Positions 4,091 to 27,560 of a stretch of 64,000 nucleotides of DNA are shown here, in pieces. Under the pieces are notes generated by a model. The model saw nothing but the letters and a program-made list of their open reading frames with translations. It was not told the origin of the DNA and ran no database searches. A program made the translations under genes and the position numbers. Positions within the stretch are counted from its first letter, which is position 1. Every line of letters starts with the position of its first letter. This stretch comes from Myxococcota bacterium (GTDB lineage: Bacteria > Myxococcota_A > UBA9160 > UBA6930): positions 4,296,757 through 4,360,756 of the forward strand of contig OZ245002.1 of NCBI GenBank assembly GCA_965223415.1, read 5' to 3'.

Positions 4091-5238
4091 TGGTGCTTCC
4101 CCGGGGCGAGCGCCCCCACGCGCGTGTTCGCAGAAAGATCGGAGTCCTGGTTGTCGACGACTCGGTCGTCGTCCGGCGGATCCTTCGCAACGCCATCGAA
4201 TCCGATCCCGAGTTCGAAGTGGTCGGGACCGCGGCCAACGGCCGGGTCGCCGTCGCCCTCGTCCAGAGCCTCCGTCCGGACGCCATCACCCTCGACGTGG
4301 AGATGCCGGTGATGGGCGGCATCGAAACGTTGAAGGAGCTGCGCAGGCGGAGGCTCTCACTTCCGGTCGTGATGTTCTCGACGCTCACAGAGGCGGGCGC
4401 TCGAACGACCATCGAGGCGCTCTCGCTGGGTGCCAGCGATTATGCTCCCAAGCCCTCCCAGACGGACCCGGAAGCCTCCGCCGAGGAAGTGCGAAGGACA
4501 CTTCTGCCCAAGCTGAAGGCCCTCTGTCGGCAAGTGCCCCCGCCCTGTCGGCGGCGGGCGCCCGCGCCCTCGTCGCCGCCTCCCAGCGATCGCGGTCGTT
4601 CGCCCATCGCGAGGTCGCCCGCCCTGGAGCTGGTCGCGGTGGGGGCCTCGACGGGCGGGCCCAACGCGCTCGCTCACCTGCTGCCGGCACTACCCGACCG
4701 CTTCCCCGTCCCGGTCGTAGTCGTGCAGCACATGCCTCCGGTGTTCACCCGTCTCCTCGCGGAGCGCCTGGACAGCAGGACCGCGCTCCGCGTCGTGGAG
4801 GGCTCCGCGGGAGCGCTCCTCGAGCCGCGTACGGTGTACGTGGCACCCGGCGGCTTCCACATGACCGTCGCGCGCAAGGGGCCGCGACTCGCACTGGCTC
4901 TCGACCGGAAGCCCCCCGAACATGGCTGTCGGCCCGCGGCCGATCCCCTGTTCCGATCCGCTTCAGCGACGCTAGGCGCCGGCGCGCTCGGCGTGGTGCT
5001 CACCGGCATGGGGCGCGACGGCTGCGACGGAGCGAGGGCGCTGGTGGAGGCCGGCGCGAAGGTCGTCGCGCAGGACGCAGAGAGCTCCGTCGTGTGGGGG
5101 ATGGCCGGGAGTGTCGTCGAGGGAGGGCTGGCGGAAGCGGTCCTGCCGCTGTCCGAGCTGGCCGGCGAGATCGTCCGTCGCGTGGAGGCCGGCCGGCCCC
5201 AGCACCCTCGGGTGCGCCCGGAGGCAAAGGCGGGATGA
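4090..5238 (+). CDS. cheB: Chemotaxis response regulator protein-glutamate methylesterase CheB
   Basis: N-terminal receiver (VLVVDDS...DAITLDVEMPVMGG) plus methylesterase domain (GASTGGP, VVVQHMP, TGMGRDG). The ATG overlaps the cheW stop (TGATG). Confidence 0.92.
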   Translation: MVLPRGERPHARVRRKIGVLVVDDSVVVRRILRNAIESDPEFEVVGTAANGRVAVALVQSLRPDAITLDVEMPVMGGIETLKELRRRRLSLPVVMFSTLTEAGARTTIEALSLGASDYAPKPSQTDPEASAEEVRRTLLPKLKALCRQVPPPCRRRAPAPSSPPPSDRGRSPIARSPALELVAVGASTGGPNALAHLLPALPDRFPVPVVVVQHMPPVFTRLLAERLDSRTALRVVEGSAGALLEPRTVYVAPGGFHMTVARKGPRLALALDRKPPEHGCRPAADPLFRSASATLGAGALGVVLTGMGRDGCDGARALVEAGAKVVAQDAESSVVWGMAGSVVEGGLAEAVLPLSELAGEIVRRVEAGRPQHPRVRPEAKAG

Positions 5239-6062
5239 AGTCGGACGAATTTCGTTTCCTCTCCGAGCTCGTCCATGATTTCTCCGGCATCGTTCTCGAC
5301 GAAGGGAAGCGCTACCTGGTGGAGTCGCGCCTCGCTCCTTGCCTCCCGGAGCACGGAATTCGCAGCTTCGGAGAGCTCGTCGCCCGGCTCCAGGAGCCGG
5401 GCCGACAACTCCTCGCAGAGCTGGTGGTGGACGCGATGACTACCAACGAGACGCTCTTCTTCCGAGATCCCGCAATGTTCGACGCGCTCCGGAACCAGGT
5501 GCTGCCTCGTCTCGTCGTGGCCCGGGACTCGGCGAAACAGCTTCGGCTCTGGTGCGGAGCGTCGGCGACAGGTCAGGAGCCCTACAGCATTGCGGTCACG
5601 ATCCGGGAGGCGTTTCCCGAGCTTGCGTCCTGGGACGTGACGCTCCTGGCGACGGACCTCTCCCGCAGCGCGCTCGCTCGAGCCGAGGAAGGGGTCTACT
5701 CCGATCTCGAGGTCCGGCGGGGCCTCGATGAGGAGCTGCGCGACAGGTACTTCATCGCCAGGGACGGACGATGGGTCGCTCGCCAGGAGATCCGGCGTCT
5801 GGTGACCTTCCGCAACCTGAATCTCGTGCACCCGTGGCCGAACCTCGGCGACTTCGACGTCGTCTTCCTCCGCAACGTCCTGATCTACTTCGACGCCGAG
5901 ACGAAGAAGGGCGTCATGCAGCGCGTGCGCAAGGTCGTGCGGCCGGACGGATATCTGTTCCTGGCCGCGACCGAGAACCCACCTGGCGCCCAGTGCGACT
6001 GGGTGCGAGAGCCGTGGCGCGGTGCGGGCTGTCTCTCTCCTCGAACTCGCGGGGACAGGTAG
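5235..6062 (+). CDS. cheR: Chemotaxis protein methyltransferase CheR
   Basis: In-frame ATG at 5235 of ORF 3996..6062, forming an ATGA overlap with the cheB stop. CheR motifs include TNETLFFRD, LRLWCGASATGQEPYSIA and FLRNVLIYFD. Confidence 0.9.
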   Translation: MKSDEFRFLSELVHDFSGIVLDEGKRYLVESRLAPCLPEHGIRSFGELVARLQEPGRQLLAELVVDAMTTNETLFFRDPAMFDALRNQVLPRLVVARDSAKQLRLWCGASATGQEPYSIAVTIREAFPELASWDVTLLATDLSRSALARAEEGVYSDLEVRRGLDEELRDRYFIARDGRWVARQEIRRLVTFRNLNLVHPWPNLGDFDVVFLRNVLIYFDAETKKGVMQRVRKVVRPDGYLFLAATENPPGAQCDWVREPWRGAGCLSPRTRGDR

Positions 6063-6217
6063 CTCGGGTGAAGGACTGGGGCGGCATGGGGGAGAGCCCC
6101 GGGGAACCCGTTTCGCGCAGGCGAGACCGACGGCGAACCAGCCGATTCGCGTTCACGTTCACGCTTCGAGGGGCCGAAGACGGTGTTGACCGCTGCGACC
6201 TGGAGAGGAGAGAACGC

Positions 6218-6574
6218 ATGAAGGTCCTCTTGATCGACGACTCGGGCGTGATGCGCAAGATGATCACTCGCGCGCTCCGTCAGAGCGGGGTCGACGTGGA
6301 GAGCGTGAGCGAGGCTGGCAACGGCAAGGAGGGCCTGGAGGTCCTCGCCAAGGAGACGTTCGACTTCGTCATCTGCGACTGGAACATGCCGGTGATGAAC
6401 GGCCTCGACTTCGTGAAGAAGGCTCGCGAGAGCGACGAGACGCCGATCATGATGCTCAGCACTGAGGGGACCGGGGACAAGGTCCAGGAGGCCATGGACG
6501 CCGGCGCGAACGGCTACCTCACCAAACCCTTCACTCCCGAGAAGCTCGAAGCGAAGATCAACTCGATCGTCTAG
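6218..6574 (+). CDS. cheY: Single-domain response regulator CheY
   Basis: In-frame ATG at 6218 preceded by GGAGAGGAGAG. 118 aa: MKVLLIDDSGVMRKM...DFVICDWNMPVMNG...GANGYLTKPF. Confidence 0.9.
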   Translation: MKVLLIDDSGVMRKMITRALRQSGVDVESVSEAGNGKEGLEVLAKETFDFVICDWNMPVMNGLDFVKKARESDETPIMMLSTEGTGDKVQEAMDAGANGYLTKPFTPEKLEAKINSIV

Positions 6575-6584
6575 GGAACGGATC

Positions 6585-7169
6585 ATGCCGAAAGATCCTC
6601 ACACCAATGTCGCCAGGCTCACCCACCGGATGCTCTCCGAAGTCGCTGACGACTGGCAGGAGATGCTCGGCATTCAGCTCGCGACGGAGCTGTTCGGAGT
6701 CTGCACCGGCTCCGGGGACGCAATGGCCAAGGCCGTGCCCGGAAGAGTCGTCGTGATCGAGACGCAGATCACCGGCGACGCCGAGGGCTCGGTGCATTTC
6801 GTCTTTACGGAGGTGTTCGCGGCGCGCGTGGTCGGGACGATGGTGATGCTCCCCGAAAGCACCATCAAGGAGAAGGAGGAGAATGGCCTCGAGGAGTCCG
6901 ATCTCGAGGCCTTCCAGGAGATGGCGAACCTGCTCTGCGGCACCTGCAACAACCTCTTCCAGAAACTCGGGCGGAAGATCCGCGTGAGCCAGGCCGTGGA
7001 GGACCTGAAGGTCCACTGCCTCGAGCTGCCCGGCGACGGGCTCTTCCCCGTCGGCGACCTGGTGGGCGTGAGGGTGGAGTGCATTCTCGACGGGCGGACC
7101 TTTCCCGCGATGCAGGTCTTCGGGGCCGAGCTGGGCAGCGCGTTGAGCAAGCGCGTTCCGGTGAGCTAG
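6585..7169 (+). CDS. CheX/CheC-like chemotaxis phosphatase (putative)
   Basis: 194 aa immediately after cheY. Contains an E-x2-N element (LEAFQEMANLL) resembling the CheC/CheX active-site motif. The assignment rests on overall resemblance and context only. Confidence 0.6.
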   Translation: MPKDPHTNVARLTHRMLSEVADDWQEMLGIQLATELFGVCTGSGDAMAKAVPGRVVVIETQITGDAEGSVHFVFTEVFAARVVGTMVMLPESTIKEKEENGLEESDLEAFQEMANLLCGTCNNLFQKLGRKIRVSQAVEDLKVHCLELPGDGLFPVGDLVGVRVECILDGRTFPAMQVFGAELGSALSKRVPVS

Positions 7170-7171
7170 GC

Positions 7172-7963
7172 ATGCCCGTCGGCGAGGCCTTCGGCAGCCG
7201 CGGCGATCCGCGCATCGGCGCGGACCTGCCGGTGCGGCTGTACTCCAGCAGCTTCAGCGGGCCTCTCGCGGCTCGGACCCGGGACCTCTCGGTGGGTGGC
7301 GCCTGCCTCGCCACCGATTCGCCGGTCGCGCCCAAGTCCATCCAGCGCGTGGAGATCCAGCTCGACGGGGACTGGCTCGCCCTGGACGCCCAGGGCCGCT
7401 GGCAGAGCGTCGAGGCCGGGGACGACGTGGTGATGACGGGCGTCGAGTTCATGGAGCCGAGCGACGAGGCTGTCGACCGGCTGTGGGACGCGGTGCTCGA
7501 GGGGGGCAAGCGACTGGCGCGCTTCCTCTACGTCGGCTCGGACCTGCGGCCGCTCGGCGTCGACGGCGCCATGGGTCTCTCGCAGATCACGCGCGTGCGC
7601 AACCTCCCCGCAGGCCACACCCTCTACCGCCAGGACAAGGACCCGGAGAACTCCGAGTCGATCTTCGTGGTCGAGAAGGGGACGGTGATCCTCCAGGTGC
7701 GCGCTCGTGGTGTGCGGGAGGTGCCGATCGACAAGGTGGGCAGCGGCCAGGTCTTCGGCGGCCTCTCGATGCTGGCGGGTGTTCCGCCCAGCGAGTCCGC
7801 GATCACCGAGACCGACGCCGTGCTCCTCGAGTTCGACGCGCGGGGCTACCAGTACCTGGCGCGCAACAAGCCCTGGCTCGCCCAGGAGCTCGGCCAGATC
7901 GTCACGACCACCTACGTGCGGAGGCTGCACCGAGTGCTCGAACGGGTGCGCGACCAGCTCTAG
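7172..7963 (+). CDS. PilZ domain / cyclic-nucleotide-binding-like (CAP_ED) fusion protein
   Basis: ATG at 7172, 2 nt after the CheX-like stop. N-terminal PilZ motifs RGDPR (RxxxR) and DLSVGG (DxSxxG). C-terminal CAP effector-type fold (GQVFGGLSMLAGVPPSESAITETDAVLLEF). Confidence 0.8.
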   Translation: MPVGEAFGSRGDPRIGADLPVRLYSSSFSGPLAARTRDLSVGGACLATDSPVAPKSIQRVEIQLDGDWLALDAQGRWQSVEAGDDVVMTGVEFMEPSDEAVDRLWDAVLEGGKRLARFLYVGSDLRPLGVDGAMGLSQITRVRNLPAGHTLYRQDKDPENSESIFVVEKGTVILQVRARGVREVPIDKVGSGQVFGGLSMLAGVPPSESAITETDAVLLEFDARGYQYLARNKPWLAQELGQIVTTTYVRRLHRVLERVRDQL

Positions 7964-7992
7964 GCGGCCGCGAACCGCTAGGGTAGGAGGCC

Positions 7993-8838
7993 ATGCGCCC
8001 CGCCTCGCTCCTCGTCGGCCTCGCGATCCTGGCGACGGCGTCTCTCGCTGCGGAACCGCTCGCCGGGGAGGCGCGCCTCCGCTTCGTGCGCGACGGTGCC
8101 CTCGTGGCGGCGCCGGGCGTGGCGGCGCTTCGGGCCGCCTGCAGCGAGCGCACCCTCGAGGTTGGTACGGATCCGTACTACGGCGTGGCGAAGCGCTTCC
8201 GGGTGTGCCCGCTGCGCGAGGTGCTTGCCCTGGGCTTCGGCGACGCGGAGGCCCTGGCGGAAGAAGGCTTCCTGCTGCGGGCCCTGGACGGCTACACGCG
8301 TTCGGCAGAGGGCAGCCAGCTGCTCGATCCAGGCGCCCACCTGGCCTTCGCCGACGCGGATCGGCTGGCCCGGGGCGAAGCGGGCTTCGACCCGATCGAC
8401 CGCCGGCAGGTGGATCCGGCGCCCTTCTATCTGGTGTGGGAGCGGCCCGAGCAGTGGGACGCCCACGCCTGGCCCTGGCCCTACCAGCTGGCGACCATCG
8501 AGGTGGCGAGCTTCGCCGATCGCCACCCGCACACGGTGCCGAGCGGCGCCGAGCCCGGCTCCGCCGAGGCGCGGGGCTACGGGCTCTTCCAACGGGAGTG
8601 CGCCCACTGCCACGCGATCAACGGCGAGGGCGGCAAGGTCGGCCCGGAGCTGAATGTGCCCCGCAACATCCTCGAGTACCGGTCCGAGCCCCAGCTCCGG
8701 GCGTTCATCCGGGATCCCCAGAGCTTCCGCTACACGAGCATGCCCGCTCATGGGCACCTGTCCGAGGCGGACCTGGACGCGTTGCTCGCCTACCTGCGAC
8801 AGATGGGCAGCCAAAAGCACGACCCGGGGACGCCGTGA
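7993..8838 (+). CDS. Secreted c-type cytochrome with an uncharacterised N-terminal domain
   Basis: Signal peptide [20 protein letters not shown]. Single CxxCH site (CAHCH) followed by [12 protein letters not shown]...SMP near the C-terminus. Confidence 0.8.
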
Positions 8839-9662
8839 CGACGGTCGGCCTCCTCCATCCCGGCGAGATGGGCGCGAGCCTCGCAGCGGCGGCGCGGAAG
8901 GCGGGCCACCGGGTCGTGGTGGCGCTCCGGGGCCGCAGTGCCGCTACCAAGGATCGCGCGGACGCCGCGGGTGTGGAGGATCTCGGCGAGCTCGCGCGGC
9001 TCGGCGCGGAGAGCGACGTGATCGCGAGCGTGTGTCCGCCCCACGCGGCCGCCGACGTGCTGGAGGCGGCCCTGGCCGCGGGCTTCGGCGGGCTCTACCT
9101 CGACGCCAACGCCATCGCGCCAGCGACCGCTCGCGCCCTGGCCCGTCGTTGCCAAGGACGTGTGCGCTTCGTGGACGGCGGCATCATCGGTCCGCCGGCT
9201 ACACCTCGTTTCCATCTCTCCGGGCCCGACGCCGAGGCGGTCGCAGGGTGCTTCGACGCCGAGCCGGTCCGCGTGCAGGTCGTCTCGGGGGAGGTCGGCG
9301 CGGCCTCCGCCCTGAAGATGGCCTTCGCGGCCTGGACGAAGGGCAGCGGCGCGCTCCTGGCGGCGACCTTCGCCCTGGCATCCGCCGAGGGCGTGGAGGA
9401 CGCGTTGCGCGAGGAGTGGGAGGCCCTGGTGCCCGATCTGCCCGGGCGCCTCGAGCGGGGCGTCCCGGCCACCGCGCCGAAGGCCTGGCGCTTCGAGGGC
9501 GAGATGCGCGAGATCGCGTCCGCCTTCGCCGCGGTGGACCTGCCCCAGGGCTTTCACGAGGCGGCCGCCGAGGTCTACCGGCGCCTCGGCCCCTTCAAGG
9601 ACGGCGCCGAGCCGCCGCCGCTCCCGCGCCTCGTCGCGGCCCTGCGCGACGGCGGGGAGTGA
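8835..9662 (+). CDS. NAD(P)-binding oxidoreductase, 6-phosphogluconate-dehydrogenase-like (DUF1932-type)
   Basis: In-frame GTG at 8835 forming a GTGA overlap with the upstream stop. Rossmann N-terminus [25 protein letters not shown]. Confidence 0.65.
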
Positions 9663-19415: not shown

Positions 19416-20264
19416 ATGAGCGATCCGCGCGCCCTCCAGATCGCCGCCCTGGGCGGACTCGCCGTCTACGGGTCGGCGGCCCTCGATTTCGAGATCGAGG
19501 CCGGACGGGTCGCCTTGGTGGTAGCGGTGGCCTTGGCCACGGAGTGGATCGGGCGACGCCTCCGCGGCGAGCCCTTCGACCCGCGCAGCCCGCTGATCAC
19601 GGCGCTCTCCCTGACGCTCCTGCTGCGCGCCGCGACGCCGGGCCTCGCCGCGGCCGGGGCGCTCCTCGCCGTCGGCAGCAAGCACCTGCTGCGGGCCCGT
19701 GGCGGCCACGTCTTCAACCCGGCCAACTTCGGCATCGTGGTGCTGCTGCTCGCCACGGACGGGGTATGGGTGTCCGCCGGCCAGTGGGGACACGCAGCAC
19801 TCCTGGCCCTGGCCCTCGCGGGCGCGGGACAGCTCGTGATCCATCGGTCCACGCGCAGCGACGTCACCTGGGCGTTCCTCGCGGCCTGGGGCGGCCTCAC
19901 CTTCGGGCGCGCCGCCTGGCTCGGCGACCCCTGGGCGATTCCGCTGCACCAGCTCCAGAACGGCGCGTTGCTGATCTTCGCCTTCTTCATGATCTCGGAT
20001 CCGCGCACCACGCCGCGCTCGCGGGCCGGCCGGGTGTTCTACGCGGCGGTGGTGGCCGGCGCCGGCTTCGCCCTGCGGTTCGGCGCCCACGAGCCGAACG
20101 GCCTGCTCCATGCCCTGTTCGCAGCGGCCCCCCTGGTGCCGCTGCTCGACCGTTGGCTTCCCGGCCCCACCTATCGGTGGGACCGGGCTCCGGAGGAACC
20201 CCGACATGCGTCCCCGTCTTCGCTCCCTGCTCCTCTCCTGCCTGTGCCTCGTGGGGCTCGCTGA
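19416..20264 (+). CDS. Polytopic membrane protein of the NqrB/RnfD-like family (orphan)
   Basis: 282 aa, multiple hydrophobic spans. Motifs GGHVFNPANFGIVVLL and FAFFMISDPRTTP match what I recall as NqrB/RnfD hallmarks. No other Rnf/Nqr subunits are nearby. Confidence 0.6.
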   Translation: MSDPRALQIAALGGLAVYGSAALDFEIEAGRVALVVAVALATEWIGRRLRGEPFDPRSPLITALSLTLLLRAATPGLAAAGALLAVGSKHLLRARGGHVFNPANFGIVVLLLATDGVWVSAGQWGHAALLALALAGAGQLVIHRSTRSDVTWAFLAAWGGLTFGRAAWLGDPWAIPLHQLQNGALLIFAFFMISDPRTTPRSRAGRVFYAAVVAGAGFALRFGAHEPNGLLHALFAAAPLVPLLDRWLPGPTYRWDRAPEEPRHASPSSLPAPLLPVPRGAR

Positions 20265-21585
20265 GGGAGCCCGCGCCTTCTGTGGCTTCTACGTCGCGAA
20301 GGCCGACACGAAGCTCTGGAACCAGGCCTCCCAGGTCGTGCTGGTGCGCGACGGCGACCGCACCGTGCTCACCATGGCCAACGACTTCAAGGGCGACCCC
20401 AAGGAGTTCGCCGTCGTGATCCCGGTGCCGACCTTCCTCGAGCGCGAGCAGATCCACGTGGGGGACAAGGCGGTGATCGACCATCTCGACGCCTACACGG
20501 CGCCGCGGCTGGTCGAGTACTTCGACTCGGATCCGTGCATGCTCGCGAAGATGCGTCGTATGGAGGCCGCGCTCCCCCAAGCATCGGCCGCCGGCCGCGC
20601 GTCGGCCGACAACGCTCGCGCCCTCGGCGTCACGATCGAGGCCGCCTACACCGTCGGCGAGTACGACATCCTGATCCTCTCCGCCGAGGAGAGCTCGGGC
20701 CTCGAGACCTGGCTCACCGGGAACGGCTACCGGCTTCCCGAGGGCGCCGGCCCCGTGCTCGGCAGCTACCTGAAGCAGGGCATGCGCTTCTTCGTCGCCA
20801 AGGTGAACCTGGAGGAGCAGGCGAAGTCCGGCTACCAAACCCTGCGCCCGCTGCAGGTGGCCTACGAGTCGCCGAAGTTCATGCTGCCCATCCGCCTGGG
20901 CACGGTCAACGCGGAAGGGCCCCAGGAGCTCTTCGTCTACGCCCTCACCCGGACCGGCCGCGTGGAGACGACGAACTACCGCACCGTCAAGCTCCCCACC
21001 GGCATGGACATCCCGGTCGCCACCAAGGAGCGCTTCGGCGAGTTCTACCGGGCGATGTTCGGCGAGCAGACCCGCCGCGAGAACGCCGAGGTGGTCTTCC
21101 TCGAGTACGCCTGGGACATGAACTGGTGCGATCCCTGCGCGGCGGATCCGCTCTCCCGCGACGAGCTCCGGCAGCTCGGCGTCTTCTGGCTGGAGGACGG
21201 GCCCGTGCCGATGCCCGGCCAGCCGCGCATCATGCCCCCGCCGACGCCGGCCCAGAACGTCTTCGCGACCCGCCTCCACCTGCGCTACGACCGGGAGCAC
21301 TTCCCGGAGGACCTGCGCTTCCAGGAGACCGGCGATCGCACGAACTTCCAGGGTCGCTACGTGCTGCGCCACGCCTGGACCGGCGACGCCCAGTGCGCCG
21401 CCGCCGAGAGCTATCGCGCGGCCCTCCCCCAGCGCCACGAGAAGGAGGTCCAGACCCTGGCCTCCCTGACCGGCTGGGACATCGGCGACATCCGGCGCTG
21501 GGCAGGGCTCCCCCCGACGCCCGCGAAGCCCACGGAGCCGCCGTCGCCCGATCCCTGGTGGAAGCGCCTCTGGCCGAGCGAGTAG
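20206..21585 (+). CDS. Secreted DUF2330-like protein
   Basis: Met 33 of ORF 20110..21585 gives a clear signal peptide MRPRLRSLLLSCLCLVGLAEGARA followed by FCGFYVAKAD. 459 aa. Overlaps the upstream gene by 59 nt. The DUF2330 assignment is from memory of the family. Confidence 0.65.
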   Translation: MRPRLRSLLLSCLCLVGLAEGARAFCGFYVAKADTKLWNQASQVVLVRDGDRTVLTMANDFKGDPKEFAVVIPVPTFLEREQIHVGDKAVIDHLDAYTAPRLVEYFDSDPCMLAKMRRMEAALPQASAAGRASADNARALGVTIEAAYTVGEYDILILSAEESSGLETWLTGNGYRLPEGAGPVLGSYLKQGMRFFVAKVNLEEQAKSGYQTLRPLQVAYESPKFMLPIRLGTVNAEGPQELFVYALTRTGRVETTNYRTVKLPTGMDIPVATKERFGEFYRAMFGEQTRRENAEVVFLEYAWDMNWCDPCAADPLSRDELRQLGVFWLEDGPVPMPGQPRIMPPPTPAQNVFATRLHLRYDREHFPEDLRFQETGDRTNFQGRYVLRHAWTGDAQCAAAESYRAALPQRHEKEVQTLASLTGWDIGDIRRWAGLPPTPAKPTEPPSPDPWWKRLWPSE

Positions 21586-21605: not shown

Positions 21606-21644
21606 CCCGGCGGGTGACGATTCTCACCCCGAAGGGCGCCCGGG
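21606..21644 (+). terminator. GC-rich nested stem-loop after the DUF2330-like gene (possible terminator or attenuator, no U-tract)
   Basis: Inner perfect inverted repeat GGGTGA-cgattc-TCACCC (21612-21629), flanked by an imperfect CCCGGC / GCCCGGG arm pair. Confidence 0.3.
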
Positions 21645-21722
21645 TCTGCCATCCTGCCTCCGGGAGGAACCGGGTCCGAGGTGAGGCATCTCAGGTCTGG
21701 ACCTTTCGGAAGAGGAGACTTC

Positions 21723-21950
21723 ATGACCCGTATCCTGAACCTGCGGCGCCTCGGCCTGGCCGTGGCCGTGGCGGGGCTCCTGGCCCTGCCCCTCGTGGCC
21801 TTCGCCGAGCACCACGAGGCCGGCGAGAACCCGTGCAACCCGTGCGCGGAGAACCCGTGCGGCGACAATCCGTGCGGCGACAATCCGTGCGGCGACAACC
21901 CCTGCGGTGACAACCCGTGCGGCGACAACCCGTGTGGAGGCGGGGACTGA
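21723..21950 (+). CDS. Secreted Cys-every-fifth-residue repeat peptide, (NPCGD)n
   Basis: Met 15 of ORF 21681..21950, preceded by GAGGAG. Signal peptide MTRILNLRRLGLAVAVAGLLALPLVAFA. Mature EHHEAGENPCNPCAENPCGDNPCGDNPCGDNPCGDNPCGDNPCGGGD has 8 Cys, all in N-P-C. Confidence 0.7.
   Translation: MTRILNLRRLGLAVAVAGLLALPLVAFAEHHEAGENPCNPCAENPCGDNPCGDNPCGDNPCGDNPCGDNPCGGGD
21852..21941 (+). repeat. Six tandem 15-bp coding units (AAYCCNTGYGGNGAC) encoding NPCGD
   Basis: Units start at 21852, 21867, 21882, 21897, 21912 and 21927. They differ only at synonymous positions, except the last unit. Confidence 0.9.
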
Positions 21951-21989
21951 TCCCAGCTCCAGTCGAAGCCTGCGTGGCGGGGGCCTCCG

Positions 21990-22111
21990 GGCCTCCGCCG
22001 CGTTCGTTTCGGGGCGTGTCCGGGGCCTCTTGGCCTCCGCCGCGTTCGTTTCGGGGCGTGTCCGGGGCCTCTTGGCCTCCGCCGCGTTCGTTTCGGGGCG
22101 TGTCCGGGGCC
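21990..22111. repeat. Three direct tandem copies of a 42-bp intergenic element (third copy 38 bp)
   Basis: GGCCTCCGCCGCGTTCGTTTCGGGGCGTGTCCGGGGCCTCTT at 21990, 22032 and 22074. Each unit can form CGCCGCG-ttcgttt-CGGGGCG, and unit junctions can form GGGGCC-tctt-GGCCTC. Lies between convergent genes. Confidence 0.9.
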
Positions 22112-25818: not shown

Positions 25819-26346
25819 TCAGTCCGCCGGGAGCTCCATCCAGAAGACGCCGCGCAGCTCGCCCTCGGCGAAGCCCGTGGCGCGGTCGTCCGGGTAGAGC
25901 GCCGCCAGGTGCTCGGCGAGCTCCGGCGAAAGCTCGCTGCCGTGGCAAGAGAGGCAGAGCGCCTGGGTGACGATGGGCTCGACGTAGCCGGTGCGTCCGC
26001 CGGGCAGGGCGACCGTTCGCGGCGCGCGGTTGCTCGGATCCGCCCGGTAGGTGTCGAGGATCGGCAGGGTCCAGGCCGGCGGGGCGTTCGCCGGGTTGCG
26101 CAGCCGGTGGCTGGTGCGGCCGACCCGCAGCCCGTCCTCCGCGTGGGCGGCGGCGATCTCGGGGGCGCGCAGCTGGCAGGCCTCGATCGCGTGGCGCGGG
26201 CCCTGGGCCAGGCCCTGCTTCAGGGCGGCTTGCAGGTCGCGCTTGAAGGGCGCGAGACGCTCCGCAGGAGTGAGGTCGGCGTCTCCGGCGTTCGCCGGGA
26301 CGGCGGCGAGCAGCAGGGCGGCGGCGAGCGATCGAATCGTATGCAT
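25819..26346 (-). CDS. Secreted DUF3365 (Tll0287-like) protein with a c-type heme site
   Basis: 175-aa tail of ORF 25819..27765. Signal peptide MHTIRSLAAALLLAAVPANA and a CxxCH site (CLSCH). Starts 2 nt after the P450 stop. Confidence 0.65.
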   Translation of the reverse strand: MHTIRSLAAALLLAAVPANAGDADLTPAERLAPFKRDLQAALKQGLAQGPRHAIEACQLRAPEIAAAHAEDGLRVGRTSHRLRNPANAPPAWTLPILDTYRADPSNRAPRTVALPGGRTGYVEPIVTQALCLSCHGSELSPELAEHLAALYPDDRATGFAEGELRGVFWMELPAD

Positions 26347-26348
26347 GC

Positions 26349-27560
26349 CTAGCGACGTACCTCGAGAGGGAGCGACTCGAAGCCCCGGATCACCATCGAG
26401 CGCAGGCGCTGCGGGGCCTCCGGAGCGGGGGCGATCTCCGAGTAGCGGTCCAGGAGGGCGTCCAACGCGATGCGTCCTTCCAGTCGCGCGAGGCCGGCGC
26501 CCAGGCAGAAGTGCACGCCGAAGCCGAAGCCCAGGTGGCGGCCTTCGGTGCGCTCCGGGAGGTACTGGTCCGGGTCGGCGAAGGCGGCCGGGTCGCGGTT
26601 GGCAGCGCCGAAGGAGAGGATCACGCGGCTTCCCGCCGGGATGTCGACGCCGGCGACGGTCACGTCGCGGGTCGTCTCCCGGCCCAGGTTCTGGACCGGC
26701 CCGTCGAAGCGCACGGTTTCTTCGAGGGCGGCGGGGACCCGACTGCGGTCCTCCCGAAGCTGCTTCCACAGGTCCGGTCGCGTCGCGAGCAGGTTCAGCT
26801 GGTTGCTGATCAGGTTCGTCGTCGTCTCGTTGCCGGCCACGAGCAGCACGATGAAGAAGCCGTCCAGCTCCGCCTGGCTGAGGCGGCGGCCGTCGATCTC
26901 CGCGTGGACGAGAGCCGAGACGAGATCGTCCTTGGGCTCGCGGCGGCGCTCTTCCGCCAGGCCCCGGAAGTAGTCGACGAGCTCGTGAGCCGACGCCAGC
27001 AGCTCCGGCGTCGGGGGCTGCTCGAGCAGGCCCACGAAGGCGTCGGACCAGCGCCGGAAGTCGTCGCGGTGCTCCGGATCGACGCCGAGCATCTCGGCGA
27101 TCACGAAGACCGGAAGCGGGATGCTGAGGGCGGGCACCAGGTCGAAACCGTCGTCGGGGAGTGCGTCCATCCGCTCGCGGGTCAGCTGCCGCACGCGCGG
27201 CTCGGCCGCCGCCACGCGCCGGGGCGTGAAGGCCCGGTTCACCAGGGCCCGGAGCTGGTCGTGGTGGGGCGGGTCGGTGGCGGGCAGGGCGGGCAGGTTG
27301 GCGAGCCCGCCTCCCCGCGGTGCCGGGCCGGCGGCGCTGCTGAAGGTGGCCGGGTCCTTGAGGGCCTCGAGCACGTCGTCGAAGCGCGTCAGCACATAGG
27401 CGCCGTAGCGCGGCTCCCGGTACACCGGCGCGTCGCGGCGCAGCCGCGCGTAGGCCGGAAAGGGATCCTCCTGGAACTCGGCGGAGAAGACGTCGACGTC
27501 CACCTCCGGAGCATCGCCGATCGCGCGGGCCTTGCGCCACACGCGGTATGCTGCCGCCAT
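26349..27560 (-). CDS. Cytochrome P450
   Basis: 403 aa. I-helix LLVAGNETTTN, ExxR (EETVR) and the heme-thiolate loop FGFGVHFCLGAGLAR. Confidence 0.92.
   Translation of the reverse strand: MAAAYRVWRKARAIGDAPEVDVDVFSAEFQEDPFPAYARLRRDAPVYREPRYGAYVLTRFDDVLEALKDPATFSSAAGPAPRGGGLANLPALPATDPPHHDQLRALVNRAFTPRRVAAAEPRVRQLTRERMDALPDDGFDLVPALSIPLPVFVIAEMLGVDPEHRDDFRRWSDAFVGLLEQPPTPELLASAHELVDYFRGLAEERRREPKDDLVSALVHAEIDGRRLSQAELDGFFIVLLVAGNETTTNLISNQLNLLATRPDLWKQLREDRSRVPAALEETVRFDGPVQNLGRETTRDVTVAGVDIPAGSRVILSFGAANRDPAAFADPDQYLPERTEGRHLGFGFGVHFCLGAGLARLEGRIALDALLDRYSEIAPAPEAPQRLRSMVIRGFESLPLEVRR

What the first reader, a model, noticed from the sequence alone, without database searches (positions are those of the whole stretch)
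21723..21950. Secreted peptide with Cys at every fifth residue: an (NPCGD)n array
Seen in sequence:
- The ORF is 75 aa with a good Shine-Dalgarno (GAGGAG).
- It has a textbook signal peptide (MTRILNLRRLGLAVAVAGLLALPLVAFA).
- The 47-aa mature part is EHHEAGE-NPC-NPC-AE-(NPCGD)x5-NPC-GGGD. All 8 Cys sit in N-P-C.
- The six 15-bp units differ only at synonymous positions (AAC/AAT, CCG/CCC, GGC/GGT, TGC/TGT). That argues for selection on the peptide rather than fresh replication slippage or a non-coding repeat.
Inference:
- It does not match a metallothionein, thioredoxin-like or named peptide family that I can place.
- Strictly periodic Cys in a small exported peptide is typical of metal-buffering peptides or RiPP/metallophore precursors. 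I recall a database family of 'Cys-every-fifth' RiPP precursors paired with a radical SAM maturase but cannot verify membership here.
- No radical SAM, DUF692/MNIO, YcaO or lanthipeptide-type maturase is present in the 64 kb. The only consistent neighbours are the RnfD-like and DUF2330-like genes upstream.
Basis: partly seen in the sequence, partly recalled or inferred. Interest (0 to 1): 0.8.

Follow-up and report, generated by a model that had tools for sequence, protein, structure and literature searches.

The report
Secreted His-His, Asn-Pro-Cys repeat peptide
This is a real, conserved gene for a small exported, unstructured peptide with a copper/nickel-type His-His start and eight Asn-Pro-Cys units.

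Summary
The ORF at 21723..21950 is exactly as described: 28-aa signal peptide, then EHHEAGE-(NPC)8 with acidic/Gly linkers. It is a real gene. Its signal-peptide codons differ from a homologue's at 15 of 28 positions, all synonymous.

It belongs to a family no Pfam or NCBIfam model captures: 262 clusters at 50% identity. The family layout is AxA|X-His-His-Glu, then N-P-C units at variable spacing. So the "every fifth" spacing is particular to this copy.

The His-His sits at residues 2-3 of the predicted mature peptide, which is an ATCUN-type Cu(II)/Ni(II) site. Cys counts are odd as often as even, and the mature part has no predicted fold.

DUF2330 and the RnfD-like gene are not partners. One homologue keeps its syntenic position without them, and 78 of 80 DUF2330 loci lack such a peptide. 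No RiPP maturase was found in the window or beside the eight other family contexts with Pfam-annotated gene calls.

The gene has its own conserved palindromic operator (GTGAC-N4-GTCAC class), a Shine-Dalgarno site and a terminator-like hairpin.

NPC repeats also occur as tails on periplasmic SoxA/TsdA-type cytochromes, cytochrome P460, a cupredoxin and a YHS protein.

Best reading: an exported thiolate/ATCUN chelator of thiol-binding metals, probably copper (about 0.42). Rivals are a sulfur/redox carrier arm and a RiPP precursor.

The parts
21614..21627 (.). Palindromic operator-like site GTGACGATTCTCAC (within GGTGACGATTCTCACC), of the CRP/FNR half-site type GTGA-N6-TCAC. Its centre lies about 102 nt upstream of the ATG.
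   Evidence: It is the only GTGA-N6-TCAC in the 64 kb. It aligns with GGTGAC-N4-GTCAC(C/T) upstream of the peptide gene in L001, L003, L005, L006, L206 and L205. The exact GTGAC-N4-GTCAC occurs 11 times in 216 fetched loci, and 10 of those lie directly upstream of HH-type NPC peptide genes, in at least four different gene neighbourhoods.
21650..21655 (+). Candidate -10 hexamer CATCCT (family variants GATGCT, CATGCT, GAACCT; A2 and T6 kept). It lies 29-35 nt downstream of the palindrome centre, as in an activator-dependent (class II) promoter. This is an inference.
   Evidence: Conserved block GTCTGC(G/C)AT(G/C)CT in alignments A5/A6. No sigma-70 consensus promoter was found. The transcription start is not known.
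21712..21717 (+). Shine-Dalgarno sequence GAGGAG, 5 nt before the ATG.
   Evidence: AAGGAGA is invariant in all homologous loci.
21723..21806 (+). Sec-type signal peptide (28 aa) ending A-F-A.
   Evidence: The protein sequence is identical in L001 despite 15 synonymous codon changes. In 65 HH-type family members the three residues before X-H-H are almost always of the AxA type (ALA, AFA, ASA and so on). The AF2 model shows only this segment as a helix.
21807..21827 (+). Predicted mature N-terminus EHHEAGE. His at mature positions 2 and 3 gives an ATCUN-type (NH2-X-X-His) site.
   Evidence: X-H-H-E (DHHE 14, AHHE 6, GHHE 4, EHHE 4 ...) or X-S/D/A-H-E directly follows the AxA site across the family.
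21828..21935 (+). Array of eight N-P-C units (NPC-NPC-AE-(NPCGD)x5-NPC), predicted to be disordered.
   Evidence: pLDDT is below 50 over the whole mature part. In HH-type relatives 477 of 485 Cys are in N-P-C, with variable spacing.
21936..21950 (+). C-terminal GGGD and the stop codon.
   Evidence: CGG(G)D or CG(D/E)E tails recur in close homologues.
21972..22003 (+). Terminator-like GC-rich hairpin (14-bp stem, loop UCCG) followed by UUCGUUUCGG.
   Evidence: The equivalent hairpin GCGGCGGGGGCC...GGCUCCCGCCGC plus TTCGTCT follows the stop codon in L001, L206 and L003. The simple terminator scan did not call it because the U tract is weak.
21972..22111 (.). 42-bp tandem repeat, 3.3 copies (three exact 38-nt cores), lying between the convergent peptide gene and the DUF2255-like gene. 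It is a local triplication of the 3' half of the terminator region.
   Evidence: It is not triplicated in homologous loci.

Best explanation
The gene encodes a stand-alone exported peptide. After Sec export and cleavage at AFA|E, the 47-residue product is acidic (10 Asp/Glu, no Lys/Arg) and intrinsically disordered. It carries two kinds of metal site. The first is an amino-terminal X-His-His (ATCUN-type) site for Cu(II)/Ni(II). The second is eight independent Asn-Pro-Cys thiol(ate)s able to hold soft, thiol-binding ions, most likely Cu(I). I propose that it works as a periplasmic or extracellular chelator or buffer of thiol-binding metal. Cu(II) would be caught at the N-terminus, reduced by the thiols, and held as Cu(I)-thiolate. 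Expression would be switched on by a dedicated regulator that binds the conserved GTGAC-N4-GTCAC-type palindrome upstream.

Shown: the gene is real and under purifying selection, the family architecture, the independence from DUF2330 and RnfD-like, the lack of any detected nearby maturase, and the conserved operator.

Inferred: the cleavage site, the metal identity, the redox hand-over, the absence of modification, and the regulator.
For: - Real, selected gene: 15 synonymous and 0 non-synonymous signal-peptide codon changes against L001. Differences among the five NPCGD units are all synonymous; the one non-synonymous change falls in the sixth unit.
- Family: 262 clusters at 50% identity with E<=1e-3, and 510 proteins in the word-index search.
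- In 65 HH-type short members, X-H-H(-E) directly follows an AxA-type signal-peptidase site, which puts His at mature positions 2 and 3. NH2-X-X-His is the established ATCUN Cu(II)/Ni(II) site (PMC7701195).
- Cys counts are even in 74 and odd in 72 of 146 short members, spacing is variable, and 477 of 485 Cys lie in N-P-C. The mature part has pLDDT below 50. This pattern fits independent free thiols rather than a disulfide-knotted fold.
- Linkers in other lineages are rich in Met, His and Lys (Mariprofundus P0302, P0305, P0317, P0308, P0180). Met and His are typical periplasmic Cu(I) ligands (background knowledge).
- NPC arrays are fused to a sulfocyanin-type cupredoxin and to a YHS domain.
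- The general architecture (Sec signal plus Cys-Gly repeats) gives weak hits to the Cu-binding HvfA model.
- ArsR/SmtB-type HTH_20 regulators lie next to the peptide gene in two unrelated contexts, L208 and L211.
- No MNIO, DUF2063, DoxX or SPASM-type radical SAM gene was seen in the window or in the eight other family contexts that have Pfam-annotated gene calls.
Against: - No metal-resistance or metal-homeostasis gene (copA, cusCBA, an MCO, cueR, csoR) is adjacent in any context examined.
- The conserved palindrome resembles CRP/FNR-type sites, not any known copper-sensor operator.
- The commonest fusion partner of NPC arrays is a SoxA/TsdA-type cytochrome c, and one subfamily sits in a rhodanese-YeeE operon. 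Both point to sulfur chemistry rather than metals.
- In an oxidising periplasm DsbA could convert the thiols into disulfides.
- The signal-peptide cleavage site is predicted only by the -3/-1 rule.
- The profile used to collect the family contained HHE, so the share of HH-type members is inflated.
- Stand-alone RiPP precursors located far from their maturase are documented (PMC12452194).
Confidence: 0.42

Rival explanations
1. Sulfur or redox carrier arm. The NPC cysteines carry sulfane sulfur or thiosulfonate, or shuttle reducing equivalents as thiol/disulfide, for periplasmic c-type cytochromes. This would be analogous to the Cys arm of SoxY that SoxAX loads with thiosulfate. The stand-alone peptide would be the free form of the tails that other bacteria fuse to SoxA/TsdA-type cytochromes.
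For: - NPC arrays flank a single SoxA/TsdA-type cytochrome c domain (PF21342; weak SoxA TIGR04484 hit) in many independent proteins (L092, L106, L110, L119, L124, L139, L168, L180, L193, L203; P0133, P0134, P0145, P0146, P0151, P0157, P0287).
- In Mariprofundus micogutta the stand-alone peptide gene lies 150 nt upstream of such an NPC-tailed SoxA-like cytochrome, which is followed by a five-heme cytochrome.
- A Tectimicrobiota peptide is likewise followed by a five-heme cytochrome.
- Marine loci L095, L128 and L153 encode a periplasmic rhodanese, a YeeE/YedE sulfur-transport protein and an NPC-repeat membrane protein as a tight operon. L173 carries the rhodanese homologue.
- The C-terminal CGGGD is faintly reminiscent of the SoxY GGCGG tail.
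Against: - There is no SoxA/TsdA-type cytochrome, rhodanese or sox gene next to the peptide in the window or in its close relatives.
- This reading does not explain the conserved N-terminal His-His.
- The fusions also include cytochrome P460, a cupredoxin, YHS and YceI-like domains, which have no sulfur role.
- The window subfamily is acidic, whereas the cytochrome tails are Ala/Lys-rich.
Confidence: 0.2
2. RiPP precursor. The Cys residues are enzymatically converted before export by a maturase encoded elsewhere in the 5.8-Mb genome. Candidates are an MNIO (to thiooxazole or oxazolone-thioamide, as in HvfA/oxazolin or bufferins) or a radical SAM enzyme (as proposed for CefA). The product would be a metallophore.
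For: - There are weak hits to HvfA (17.1 bits) and CefA (15 bits).
- A Sec signal peptide in place of a leader is the hallmark of bufferin and oxazolin precursors, and some of those precursors are genuinely stand-alone genes. An MNIO-linked 'CxxxxC' signal-peptide family also exists (PMC12452194).
- Pro-Cys-Gly/Ser is a context in which methanobactin Cys is modified (my own recollection, not checked).
Against: - Both HMM scores are far below the curated cut-offs (95 and 30).
- There is no EGKCG motif.
- No MNIO, DUF2063, DoxX or YcaO was seen among the Pfam families shown for the window, and no CX3CX2C protein exists in the window.
- None appears in the gene calls around the eight other family contexts with Pfam annotation. 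None is enriched among 84 neighbours of 23 other NPC loci, though only the 25 commonest of 104 families were displayed.
- NPC-type strings are absent from the supplementary precursor tables of the MNIO survey.
- The only adjacent radical SAM gene (L207) carries DUF3641 and is paired with a methyltransferase. That is the ArsS/ArsM arsenosugar arrangement as I recall it, not a SPASM maturase.
Confidence: 0.12
3. Substrate or partner of the upstream RnfD-like/DUF2330 module. DUF2330 (with a CxxC motif) and its membrane partner would reduce, oxidise or load the peptide.
For: - The peptide lies immediately downstream of DUF2330 in the window, L001/L002, L004, L005 and L006.
- DUF2330 has an invariant WCDPC motif and is itself exported.
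- DUF2330 and RnfD-like are truly linked to each other, since fusion proteins exist.
Against: - L206 keeps the peptide between the same flanking genes with both RnfD-like and DUF2330 missing.
- L205, L216, L207, L208, L211, L214 and L215 carry family peptides without DUF2330.
- 78 of 80 DUF2330 loci across phyla have no Cys-rich secreted small ORF downstream.
- The peptide has its own operator, Shine-Dalgarno site and terminator.
Confidence: 0.03
4. No function: a non-coding microsatellite or a spurious ORF in GC-rich DNA.
For: High-GC DNA yields many spurious ORFs. The region is a 15-bp tandem repeat.
Against: - GC3 is 0.85, in the range of the ORFs accepted as genes in this window.
- Variation is almost entirely synonymous.
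- The signal peptide, Shine-Dalgarno site, operator and terminator are conserved across diverged loci.
- There are hundreds of relatives, all in frame.
Confidence: 0.01

Closest known systems
HvfA / oxazolin (Buf_EGKCG; NCBIfam NF050188), the MNIO-modified Cu(I)-binding RiPP of Haemophilus influenzae (PMC11252979, PMC12452194)
   Same: It is a small protein with a Sec signal peptide in place of a leader. It has short repeats with one Cys each followed by Gly, and C-x4-C spacing in this copy. It acts in the periplasm, and copper binding is the proposed role.
   Different: The motif is N-P-C, not E-G-K-C-G. The HMM score is 17 bits against a cut-off of 95. No hvfB (MNIO) or hvfC (DUF2063) was found nearby in any context. 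The spacing is variable rather than built on 17-residue repeats. A conserved N-terminal X-His-His is not described for HvfA.
Bufferins (DUF2282 / Buf_6/12Cys), MNIO-modified periplasmic copper-chelating RiPPs (PMC11626156)
   Same: They are exported through Sec, use Cys-based metal chelation and buffer copper in the periplasm. Some of their precursor genes stand alone.
   Different: There is no DUF2282 or other Pfam hit. There is no bufBC-type operon. Bufferins are small folded proteins with a fixed Cys pattern, whereas this peptide is a variable repeat array with no predicted fold.
CefA 'Cys-every-fifth' RiPP peptide (NCBIfam NF038108)
   Same: Cys recurs with a period of five in this copy. 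The low-complexity match covers residues 39-71.
   Different: The score is 15 bits against a cut-off of 30. The period is not conserved in the family. No radical SAM partner exists in the window. CefA's defining partner enzyme is recalled from the family name only and was not verified.
Metallothioneins and phytochelatins (Cys-rich thiolate metal buffers), and ATCUN peptides such as histatin-5 (DSH...) and hepcidin (DTH... plus 8 Cys)
   Same: All are short, Cys-rich and low in complexity with acidic spacers, and all chelate through thiolates. The X-X-His amino terminus is shared with the ATCUN peptides (PMC7701195).
   Different: This peptide is exported rather than cytosolic. It has single isolated Cys in N-P-C instead of C-x-C or CC clusters. 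It is gene-encoded, unlike phytochelatins. It shares no homology with any of these.
SoxY carrier arm of the Sox thiosulfate-oxidation system
   Same: A flexible periplasmic Cys-bearing peptide segment serves a SoxA-type cytochrome. The window peptide has a Gly-rich C-terminal Cys context (CGGGD compared with GGCGG).
   Different: There is no SoxY fold or Pfam hit. There are many Cys rather than one. No sox genes lie nearby. The SoxA-like link is seen only in other members of the NPC class.
CdeC exosporium protein of Clostridioides difficile (PMC7677010)
   Same: It contains a run of six N-P-C repeats and an HHH motif in a Cys-rich protein.
   Different: It is a 405-aa spore-surface protein that self-assembles through disulfides. 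It has no signal-peptide/X-H-H architecture, and no homology was tested or expected.

Membership tests
CefA Cys-every-fifth RiPP peptide (NF038108) | Score at or above the curated NCBIfam cut-off (30 bits) | tested here: not met
   15.0 bits, E 0.017. Relatives score 14-16 bits.
CefA Cys-every-fifth RiPP peptide (NF038108) | Strict five-residue Cys period as a family property | tested here: not met
   The period holds for six units of the window copy. In HH-type relatives the spacing is 3 (129 cases), 5 (112), 6 (50), 7 (47), 8 (38) and more.
CefA Cys-every-fifth RiPP peptide (NF038108) | Adjacent radical SAM maturase | tested here: not met
   No CX3CX2C motif in any ORF of at least 100 aa in six frames of the 64 kb. 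No Radical_SAM among the Pfam families shown. The rest of the genome could not be searched.
HvfA / oxazolin (NF050188, Buf_EGKCG) | Score at or above the curated cut-off (95 bits), and EGKCG repeats | tested here: not met
   17.1 bits. The motif is NPCGD/NPCAE.
HvfA / oxazolin (NF050188, Buf_EGKCG) | MNIO (PF05114) and DUF2063 partner genes, often with DoxX, in the same cluster | tested here: not met
   Absent from the Pfam families shown for about 53 window ORFs (the weakest 6 and 11 families were not displayed). Absent from the gene calls around the eight other family contexts with Pfam annotation. A distant locus in the genome is not excluded.
HvfA / oxazolin (NF050188, Buf_EGKCG) | Sec signal peptide instead of a RiPP leader | tested here: met
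   The n-h-c regions and the AFA cleavage motif are present. This is a prediction by rule, not by experiment.
Bufferin 1 (DUF2282) | Pfam DUF2282 domain | tested here: not met
   No hit at E<=1.
ATCUN (amino-terminal Cu/Ni) peptides | Free alpha-amino group with His as the third residue of the mature chain | tested here: inconclusive
   The predicted cleavage AFA|EHH gives His3 (and His2). In the HH-type relatives, X-H-H is preceded by an AxA-type site in nearly all of 65. Cleavage and metal binding cannot be tested with these tools.
Metallothionein | Clustered C-x-C, C-C or C-x-x-C motifs, a cytosolic location and a recognised MT family signature | tested here: not met
   All Cys are isolated in N-P-C, a signal peptide is present, and there is no Pfam or NCBIfam MT hit.
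SoxY-type sulfur carrier | SoxY domain with a C-terminal GGCGG arm, encoded with soxZ and soxAX | tested here: not met
   No Pfam or NCBIfam hit. No sox genes appear among the window families shown. Only a functional analogy remains.
DUF2330 / RnfD-like module (as a third component) | Co-occurrence with DUF2330 across lineages | tested here: not met
   2 of 80 DUF2330 loci carry the peptide. The peptide occurs without DUF2330 in L205, L206, L207, L208, L211, L214, L215 and L216.

The most novel reading that the evidence does not exclude
N-P-C arrays are a previously unrecognised, widespread periplasmic 'thiol arm' module. They occur free, as signal peptide-X-His-His-Glu-(NPC)n peptides under a dedicated GTGAC-N4-GTCAC regulon. 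They also occur fused to both ends of SoxA/TsdA-type His/Cys-heme cytochromes, cytochrome P460, cupredoxin, YHS and YceI-like domains. On this reading they act as a genetically encoded, unmodified carrier that passes soft metals, metalloids or sulfane sulfur (or electrons, via thiol/disulfide exchange) to periplasmic redox proteins. That would be a new class of carrier, distinct from both RiPP metallophores and SoxY.
Probability: 0.3. Interest if true: 0.8.

Novelty: new variant of a known kind. Interest (0 to 1): 0.62.

Why it matters
Exported Cys-based metal chelators in bacteria are so far known mainly as enzyme-modified RiPPs: methanobactins, bufferins and oxazolins.

- **A simpler solution.** A family of hundreds of gene clusters that seems to reach a similar end with an unmodified, disordered peptide would be genetically simpler. 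It would combine an ATCUN-type amino terminus with a variable string of Asn-Pro-Cys thiols.
- **Annotation.** Hundreds of 'hypothetical' or 'low-complexity' small ORFs in marine and soil bacteria, including the iron-oxidiser Mariprofundus, would gain an explanation.
- **Practical handles.** The conserved operator offers a way to find the signal and the regulator.
- **Cytochrome tails.** The same NPC arrays on SoxA/TsdA-like cytochromes, cytochrome P460 and a cupredoxin suggest a general, unstudied accessory of periplasmic redox proteins.
- **Correcting a lead.** The work also removes a tempting but wrong guilt-by-association link to DUF2330.

Tried and rejected
- **DUF2330/RnfD-like as partners.** I fetched 80 DUF2330 loci and scanned the region downstream of each. 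The idea was rejected, and L206 is decisive.
- **Structure of DUF2330.** I predicted it to get a functional hint. Mean pLDDT was 44.5, so the model is unusable and no fold search was run.
- **Exact-protein lookup of the window genome.** This was meant to supply Pfam-annotated gene calls beyond the window.
- **RiPP maturases near other NPC loci.** No MNIO, rSAM or DUF2063 family was among the 25 commonest of 104 Pfam families in 84 neighbours of 23 loci.
- **5' leader as a riboswitch or structured RNA.** There was no Rfam hit. The consensus fold is weak, at -4.5 kcal/mol with little covariation. Rejected.
- **Consensus promoter and terminator scans.** Both found nothing. The terminator-like hairpin was found by folding instead.
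- **Literature.** No paper mentions DUF2330 or 'Cys-every-fifth'. NPC-repeat peptide strings returned only unrelated matches. The only NPC-repeat mention concerns C. difficile CdeC. The MNIO survey supplements contain none of these strings.
- **A CRP-type regulator in the window.** The only cNMP-binding protein (7079..7963) shows no recognisable DNA-binding region when its sequence is read by eye. The regulator remains unknown.
- **Heme regulatory (Cys-Pro) motifs and formylglycine (C-x-P-x-R) motifs.** I considered both as explanations of NPC. The residue order or the required Arg does not fit, so both were rejected by inspection.
Full report
**1. The observation**

The window sequence, the ORF table and a codon script confirm the ORF at 21723..21950 (+).
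- GAGGAG lies at 21712-21717, 5 nt before the ATG.
- The signal peptide is the 28-aa MTRILNLRRLGLAVAVAGLLALPLVAFA.
- The 47-aa remainder is EHHEAGE-NPC-NPC-AE-(NPCGD)x5-NPC-GGGD.
- It has 8 Cys, all in N-P-C, with 10 acidic and no basic residues.

TRF reports a 15-bp period with 6.6 copies. The units differ at third codon positions only (AAC/AAT, CCG/CCC, TGC/TGT, GGC/GGT/GGA), apart from the D->G change in the last unit. Only 20% of possible substitutions in the unit would be synonymous.

**2. It is a real, selected gene**

A protein search found eight homologues. More turned up in fetched loci: L005 and L006, L205 and L206.
- All keep a signal peptide and an in-frame NPC array, although the number of units (5-8) and their spacing differ.
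- Between the window and L001 the 28 signal-peptide codons differ at 15 codons. All 15 changes are synonymous.
- GC3 of the ORF is 0.85, in the range of the ORFs accepted as genes in this window.

The microsatellite or spurious-ORF reading is excluded.

**3. The family is much larger than the first search suggested**

A profile of nine members, scored with HMMER against 1.84 billion cluster representatives, found 262 clusters at E<=1e-3 and 42 at E<=1e-10. A word-index search with 27 members found 510 proteins. Sources name them only 'hypothetical' or 'uncharacterized low-complexity protein'.

No Pfam family matches. NCBIfam gives only sub-threshold hits, to HvfA (17.1 bits; cut-off 95) and CefA (15; cut-off 30). 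A full-text search for the peptide strings found nothing relevant.

Reading the sequences and counting over 146 short members gives these family features:
- **N-terminus.** Sixty-five members are 'HH-type'. An AxA-type signal-peptidase site (ALA, AFA, ASA, AGA ...) is followed directly by X-His-His, nearly always X-H-H-E (DHHE 14, AHHE 6, GHHE 4, EHHE 4). Others have X-S-H-E, G-D-H-E or D-A-H-G. NPC units begin 0-8 residues later.
- **Cys context.** 477 of 485 Cys lie in N-P-C.
- **Spacing.** Cys-Cys spacing is 3, 5, 6, 7, 8 and more, so the five-residue period of the window copy is not a family property.
- **Linkers.** They are drawn from A, K, E, G, D, M and H.
- **Parity.** Cys number is even in 74 members and odd in 72.

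AlphaFold2 models only the signal peptide as a helix. The mature part has pLDDT below 50.

Variable spacing, no preference for an even Cys count and no predicted fold together argue for independent thiols on a disordered chain, not a disulfide-knotted mini-protein.

One caveat applies. The profile contained HHE, so the proportion of HH-type members is biased upward. A DNA-pattern scan that ignored the N-terminus found mainly Ala/Lys-type NPC proteins without HHE.

**4.

DUF2330 (20206..21585; PF10092, E 1.7e-86) and the RnfD-like gene (19416..20264; PF03116) are clearly linked to each other. They overlap here and are fused into one protein in many organisms.

The peptide is not part of that module.
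- Of 80 DUF2330 loci from Acidobacteriota, Proteobacteria, Verrucomicrobiota, Nitrospirota and others, only the two closest relatives (L005, L006) have an NPC peptide downstream. No other locus has a Cys-rich secreted small ORF there.
- In L206 the peptide lies between the same threonine dehydratase and luciferase-like genes as in the window, but RnfD-like and DUF2330 are absent.
- More distant members lie next to a PlsB-type acyltransferase (L205, L216), PqiAB/MlaD genes (L208), acetyltransferases (L215) or cytochromes (L207, L214).

**5. It is its own transcription unit with a conserved operator**

Alignment of the upstream regions shows a palindrome. It reads GGTGACGATTCTCACC in the window (21613-21628) and GGTGAC-N4-GTCAC(C/T) elsewhere.

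It is followed about 30 nt later by a conserved nATnCT hexamer (21650-21655), which fits an activator-dependent promoter. That reading is an inference. An invariant AAGGAGA Shine-Dalgarno sequence follows.

The site is the only GTGA-N6-TCAC in the 64 kb. Across all 216 fetched loci the exact GTGAC-N4-GTCAC occurs 11 times. Ten of those are directly upstream of HH-type NPC peptide genes, in at least four unrelated neighbourhoods: L003/4, L005, L006, L206; L205 and L216; L208-210. L211 has a one-mismatch version.

The half-sites resemble CRP/FNR-family sites. The regulator is unknown, since the only cNMP-binding protein in the window shows no recognisable DNA-binding region.

Twenty-one nucleotides after the stop codon there is a 14-bp GC-rich hairpin followed by UUCGUUUCGG (21972-22003). 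It is conserved in L001, L206 and L003. In the window its 3' part has been triplicated into a perfect 42-bp x 3.3 repeat.

No Rfam family matches the region, and no convincing leader structure was found.

**6. No maturase**

- No ORF of at least 100 aa in any frame of the window has a CX3CX2C motif.
- Pfam scans of about 53 window ORFs show chemotaxis, fatty-acid/CoA, luciferase-like, P450 and similar families. MNIO, DUF2063, DoxX, YcaO and radical SAM families do not appear. Only the strongest 25 of 31 and 36 families were displayed.
- The same holds for the Pfam-annotated gene calls around the eight other family contexts examined.
- No such family is enriched among 84 neighbours of 23 other NPC loci, with the 25 commonest of 104 families displayed.

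The one adjacent radical SAM gene (L207) carries DUF3641 and is paired with a methyltransferase. As I recall it, that is the ArsS/ArsM arsenosugar arrangement.

The MNIO survey notes that signal-peptide precursors can be stand-alone, and it describes a 'CxxxxC' precursor family (PMC12452194). A distant maturase therefore cannot be excluded. NPC strings are absent from that paper's supplementary tables.

**7. N-P-C arrays are a wider periplasmic module**

Alongside many non-coding or out-of-frame matches, it yielded exported proteins in which NPC arrays, mostly NPCAA(K), flank other domains. The HMMER search added more such proteins.

| Partner | Examples |
|---|---|
| Single SoxA/TsdA-type cytochrome c domain (PF21342) | at least 10 loci; P0133, P0134, P0145, P0146, P0151, P0157, P0287 |
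| Cytochrome P460 | L160, P0153, P0161 |
| Sulfocyanin-type cupredoxin | L199 |
| YHS domain | L087 |
| YceI-like domain (identified by eye) | P0131 |
| Small unassigned beta-rich domain | L145, L147, P0135, P0142, P0143, P0158 |

Several genomic contexts add to the picture.
- In marine loci L095, L128 and L153 an NPC membrane protein is translationally coupled to a YeeE/YedE sulfur-transport gene and preceded by a periplasmic rhodanese. L173 carries the rhodanese homologue.
- In Mariprofundus micogutta the stand-alone peptide has mature N-terminus G-S-H and Met/His/Lys linkers. It lies just upstream of an NPC-tailed SoxA-like cytochrome whose own mature N-terminus is also G-S-H, followed by a five-heme cytochrome.
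- A Tectimicrobiota peptide is likewise followed by a five-heme cytochrome.

**8. How it most likely works**

NH2-X-X-His is the classical ATCUN Cu(II)/Ni(II) site (PMC7701195). Its conservation exactly at the predicted signal-peptidase junction is the strongest functional clue.

Several other features fit a chelator:
- independent thiols;
- acidic linkers here, and Met/His-rich linkers elsewhere;
- export;
- the cupredoxin and YHS fusions;
- the distant resemblance to the Cu-binding HvfA;
- ArsR/SmtB-type regulators beside two members.

From these I favour an unmodified periplasmic or extracellular chelator or buffer of thiol-binding metal, most likely copper. Cu(II) would be captured at the N-terminus and held as Cu(I)-thiolate (confidence 0.42).

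The main rival (0.20) is a sulfur or redox carrier arm for SoxA/TsdA-type cytochromes, by analogy with SoxY. The fusions, the Mariprofundus adjacency and the rhodanese-YeeE operon support it. It does not explain the His-His terminus, and it has no support in the window's own neighbourhood.

A RiPP precursor with a remote maturase remains possible (0.12). The DUF2330 link (0.03) and non-function (0.01) are effectively excluded. The remainder is 'something else'. For example, arsenic-related genes recur near NPC loci (an ArsC-type phosphatase in L092/L192, ArsS/ArsM-like genes in L207), which I could not evaluate.

**9. Comparison and novelty**

The peptide works most like periplasmic Cys-based copper chelators (bufferins, oxazolin/HvfA) and like ATCUN peptides. 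It fails every testable membership criterion of HvfA, CefA, bufferins, metallothioneins and SoxY (see the membership table).

I therefore file it as a new variant of a known kind: an apparently unmodified, repeat-based, exported thiol/ATCUN peptide family with its own conserved operator. I rate interest at 0.62. The family is large, undescribed and mechanistically testable. The NPC tails on cytochromes hint at something broader. The function, however, is still an inference.

Noticed in passing
window 19416-20264 (RnfD-like) and 20206-21585 (DUF2330); loci L005-L084: DUF2330 is unusually conserved, at 62-79% identity across Acidobacteriota, Proteobacteria, Verrucomicrobiota, Nitrospirota, Binatia and others. 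It is often fused to the RnfD-like membrane protein (PF10092+PF03116, 700-796 aa). After its signal peptide the mature N-terminus is an invariant FCGFYVA, and it has an invariant WCDPCAADP (CxxC) motif. The RnfD-like partner appears, by eye, to lack the SGAT flavinylation motif. No paper in the library mentions DUF2330, and the AF2 model was poor (pLDDT 44).
   Followed up: partly
window 21972-22111: A perfect 42-bp tandem triplication (three exact 38-nt cores) lies between the convergent peptide gene and the DUF2255-like gene. It duplicates the 3' half and tail of the peptide gene's terminator-like hairpin. It is absent from homologous loci, so it is recent and local.
   Followed up: partly
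loci L092, L106, L110, L119, L124, L139, L168, L180, L193, L203; proteins P0133, P0134, P0145, P0146, P0151, P0157, P0287: This is a family of exported single-domain SoxA/TsdA-type cytochromes c with one CxxCH and a conserved C-M, the position of the Cys heme ligand in SoxA/TsdA as I recall it. They carry (NPCAA/NPCAAK)n arrays at both the N- and C-termini. No Pfam or NCBIfam model covers the arrays.
   Followed up: partly
L095 1713-4400; L128 7955-10797; L153 4140-7146; L173: These marine loci carry a conserved operon: a periplasmic two-domain rhodanese, a YeeE/YedE 'sulphur transport' protein, and a membrane-anchored protein with 14-26 NPC units. The last two genes overlap by 4 nt. A TetR regulator lies upstream.
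   Followed up: partly
L207 (Mariprofundus micogutta BDFD01000009.1) 5086-9307: The gene order is radical SAM+DUF3641 (ArsS-like), a methyltransferase (ArsM-like), an 81-aa G-S-H/NPC peptide with Met/His/Lys linkers, an NPC-tailed SoxA/TsdA cytochrome c, and a five-heme cytochrome with a MtrC/MtrF-like domain. This is an iron-oxidising Zetaproteobacterium.
   Followed up: partly
L092 1492-2778, L192 1296-2582, L160 3773-5415: DUF6969 proteins sit next to NPC-tailed cytochromes of two different architectures, SoxA-like and P460. They are accompanied by an ArsC-type low-molecular-weight phosphatase (L092, L192) or an exported FGE-sulfatase-family protein (L160). An FGE-sulfatase/Methyltransf_33 pair also lies near the peptide in L214.
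   Followed up: no
L208 7310-8136; L211 5022-6214: ArsR/SmtB-type HTH_20 regulators paired with an AHSA1/SRPBCC protein lie within 1 kb of HH-type NPC peptide genes in two unrelated contexts. In L211 the pair is divergent from a DUF6632-peptide pair. It is unclear whether they bind the GTGAC-N4-GTCAC palindrome.
   Followed up: no
window 25822-26400 (-): A Tll0287-like exported c-type heme protein (CLSCH; PF11845) lies 4 kb downstream, in conserved synteny with the peptide locus (also in L001). As I recall, Tll0287 has His/Cys heme ligation, like SoxA/TsdA. No link to the peptide was tested.
   Followed up: no
proteins P0152, P0155, P0189, P0196, P0200, P0203, P0206; locus L204 2710-2988: These are lipoprotein versions of the NPC peptides. 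A lipobox Cys replaces the AxA|X-H-H junction, and acidic NPCGE/NPCGD/NPCAE arrays follow. The thiol array would therefore be tethered to a membrane.
   Followed up: no
literature: PMC7677010: The Clostridioides difficile exosporium protein CdeC is described as having a six-fold N-P-C repeat and an HHH motif near its N-terminus. The combination echoes the HH/NPC peptides, but the protein is unrelated and assembles through disulfides.
   Followed up: no
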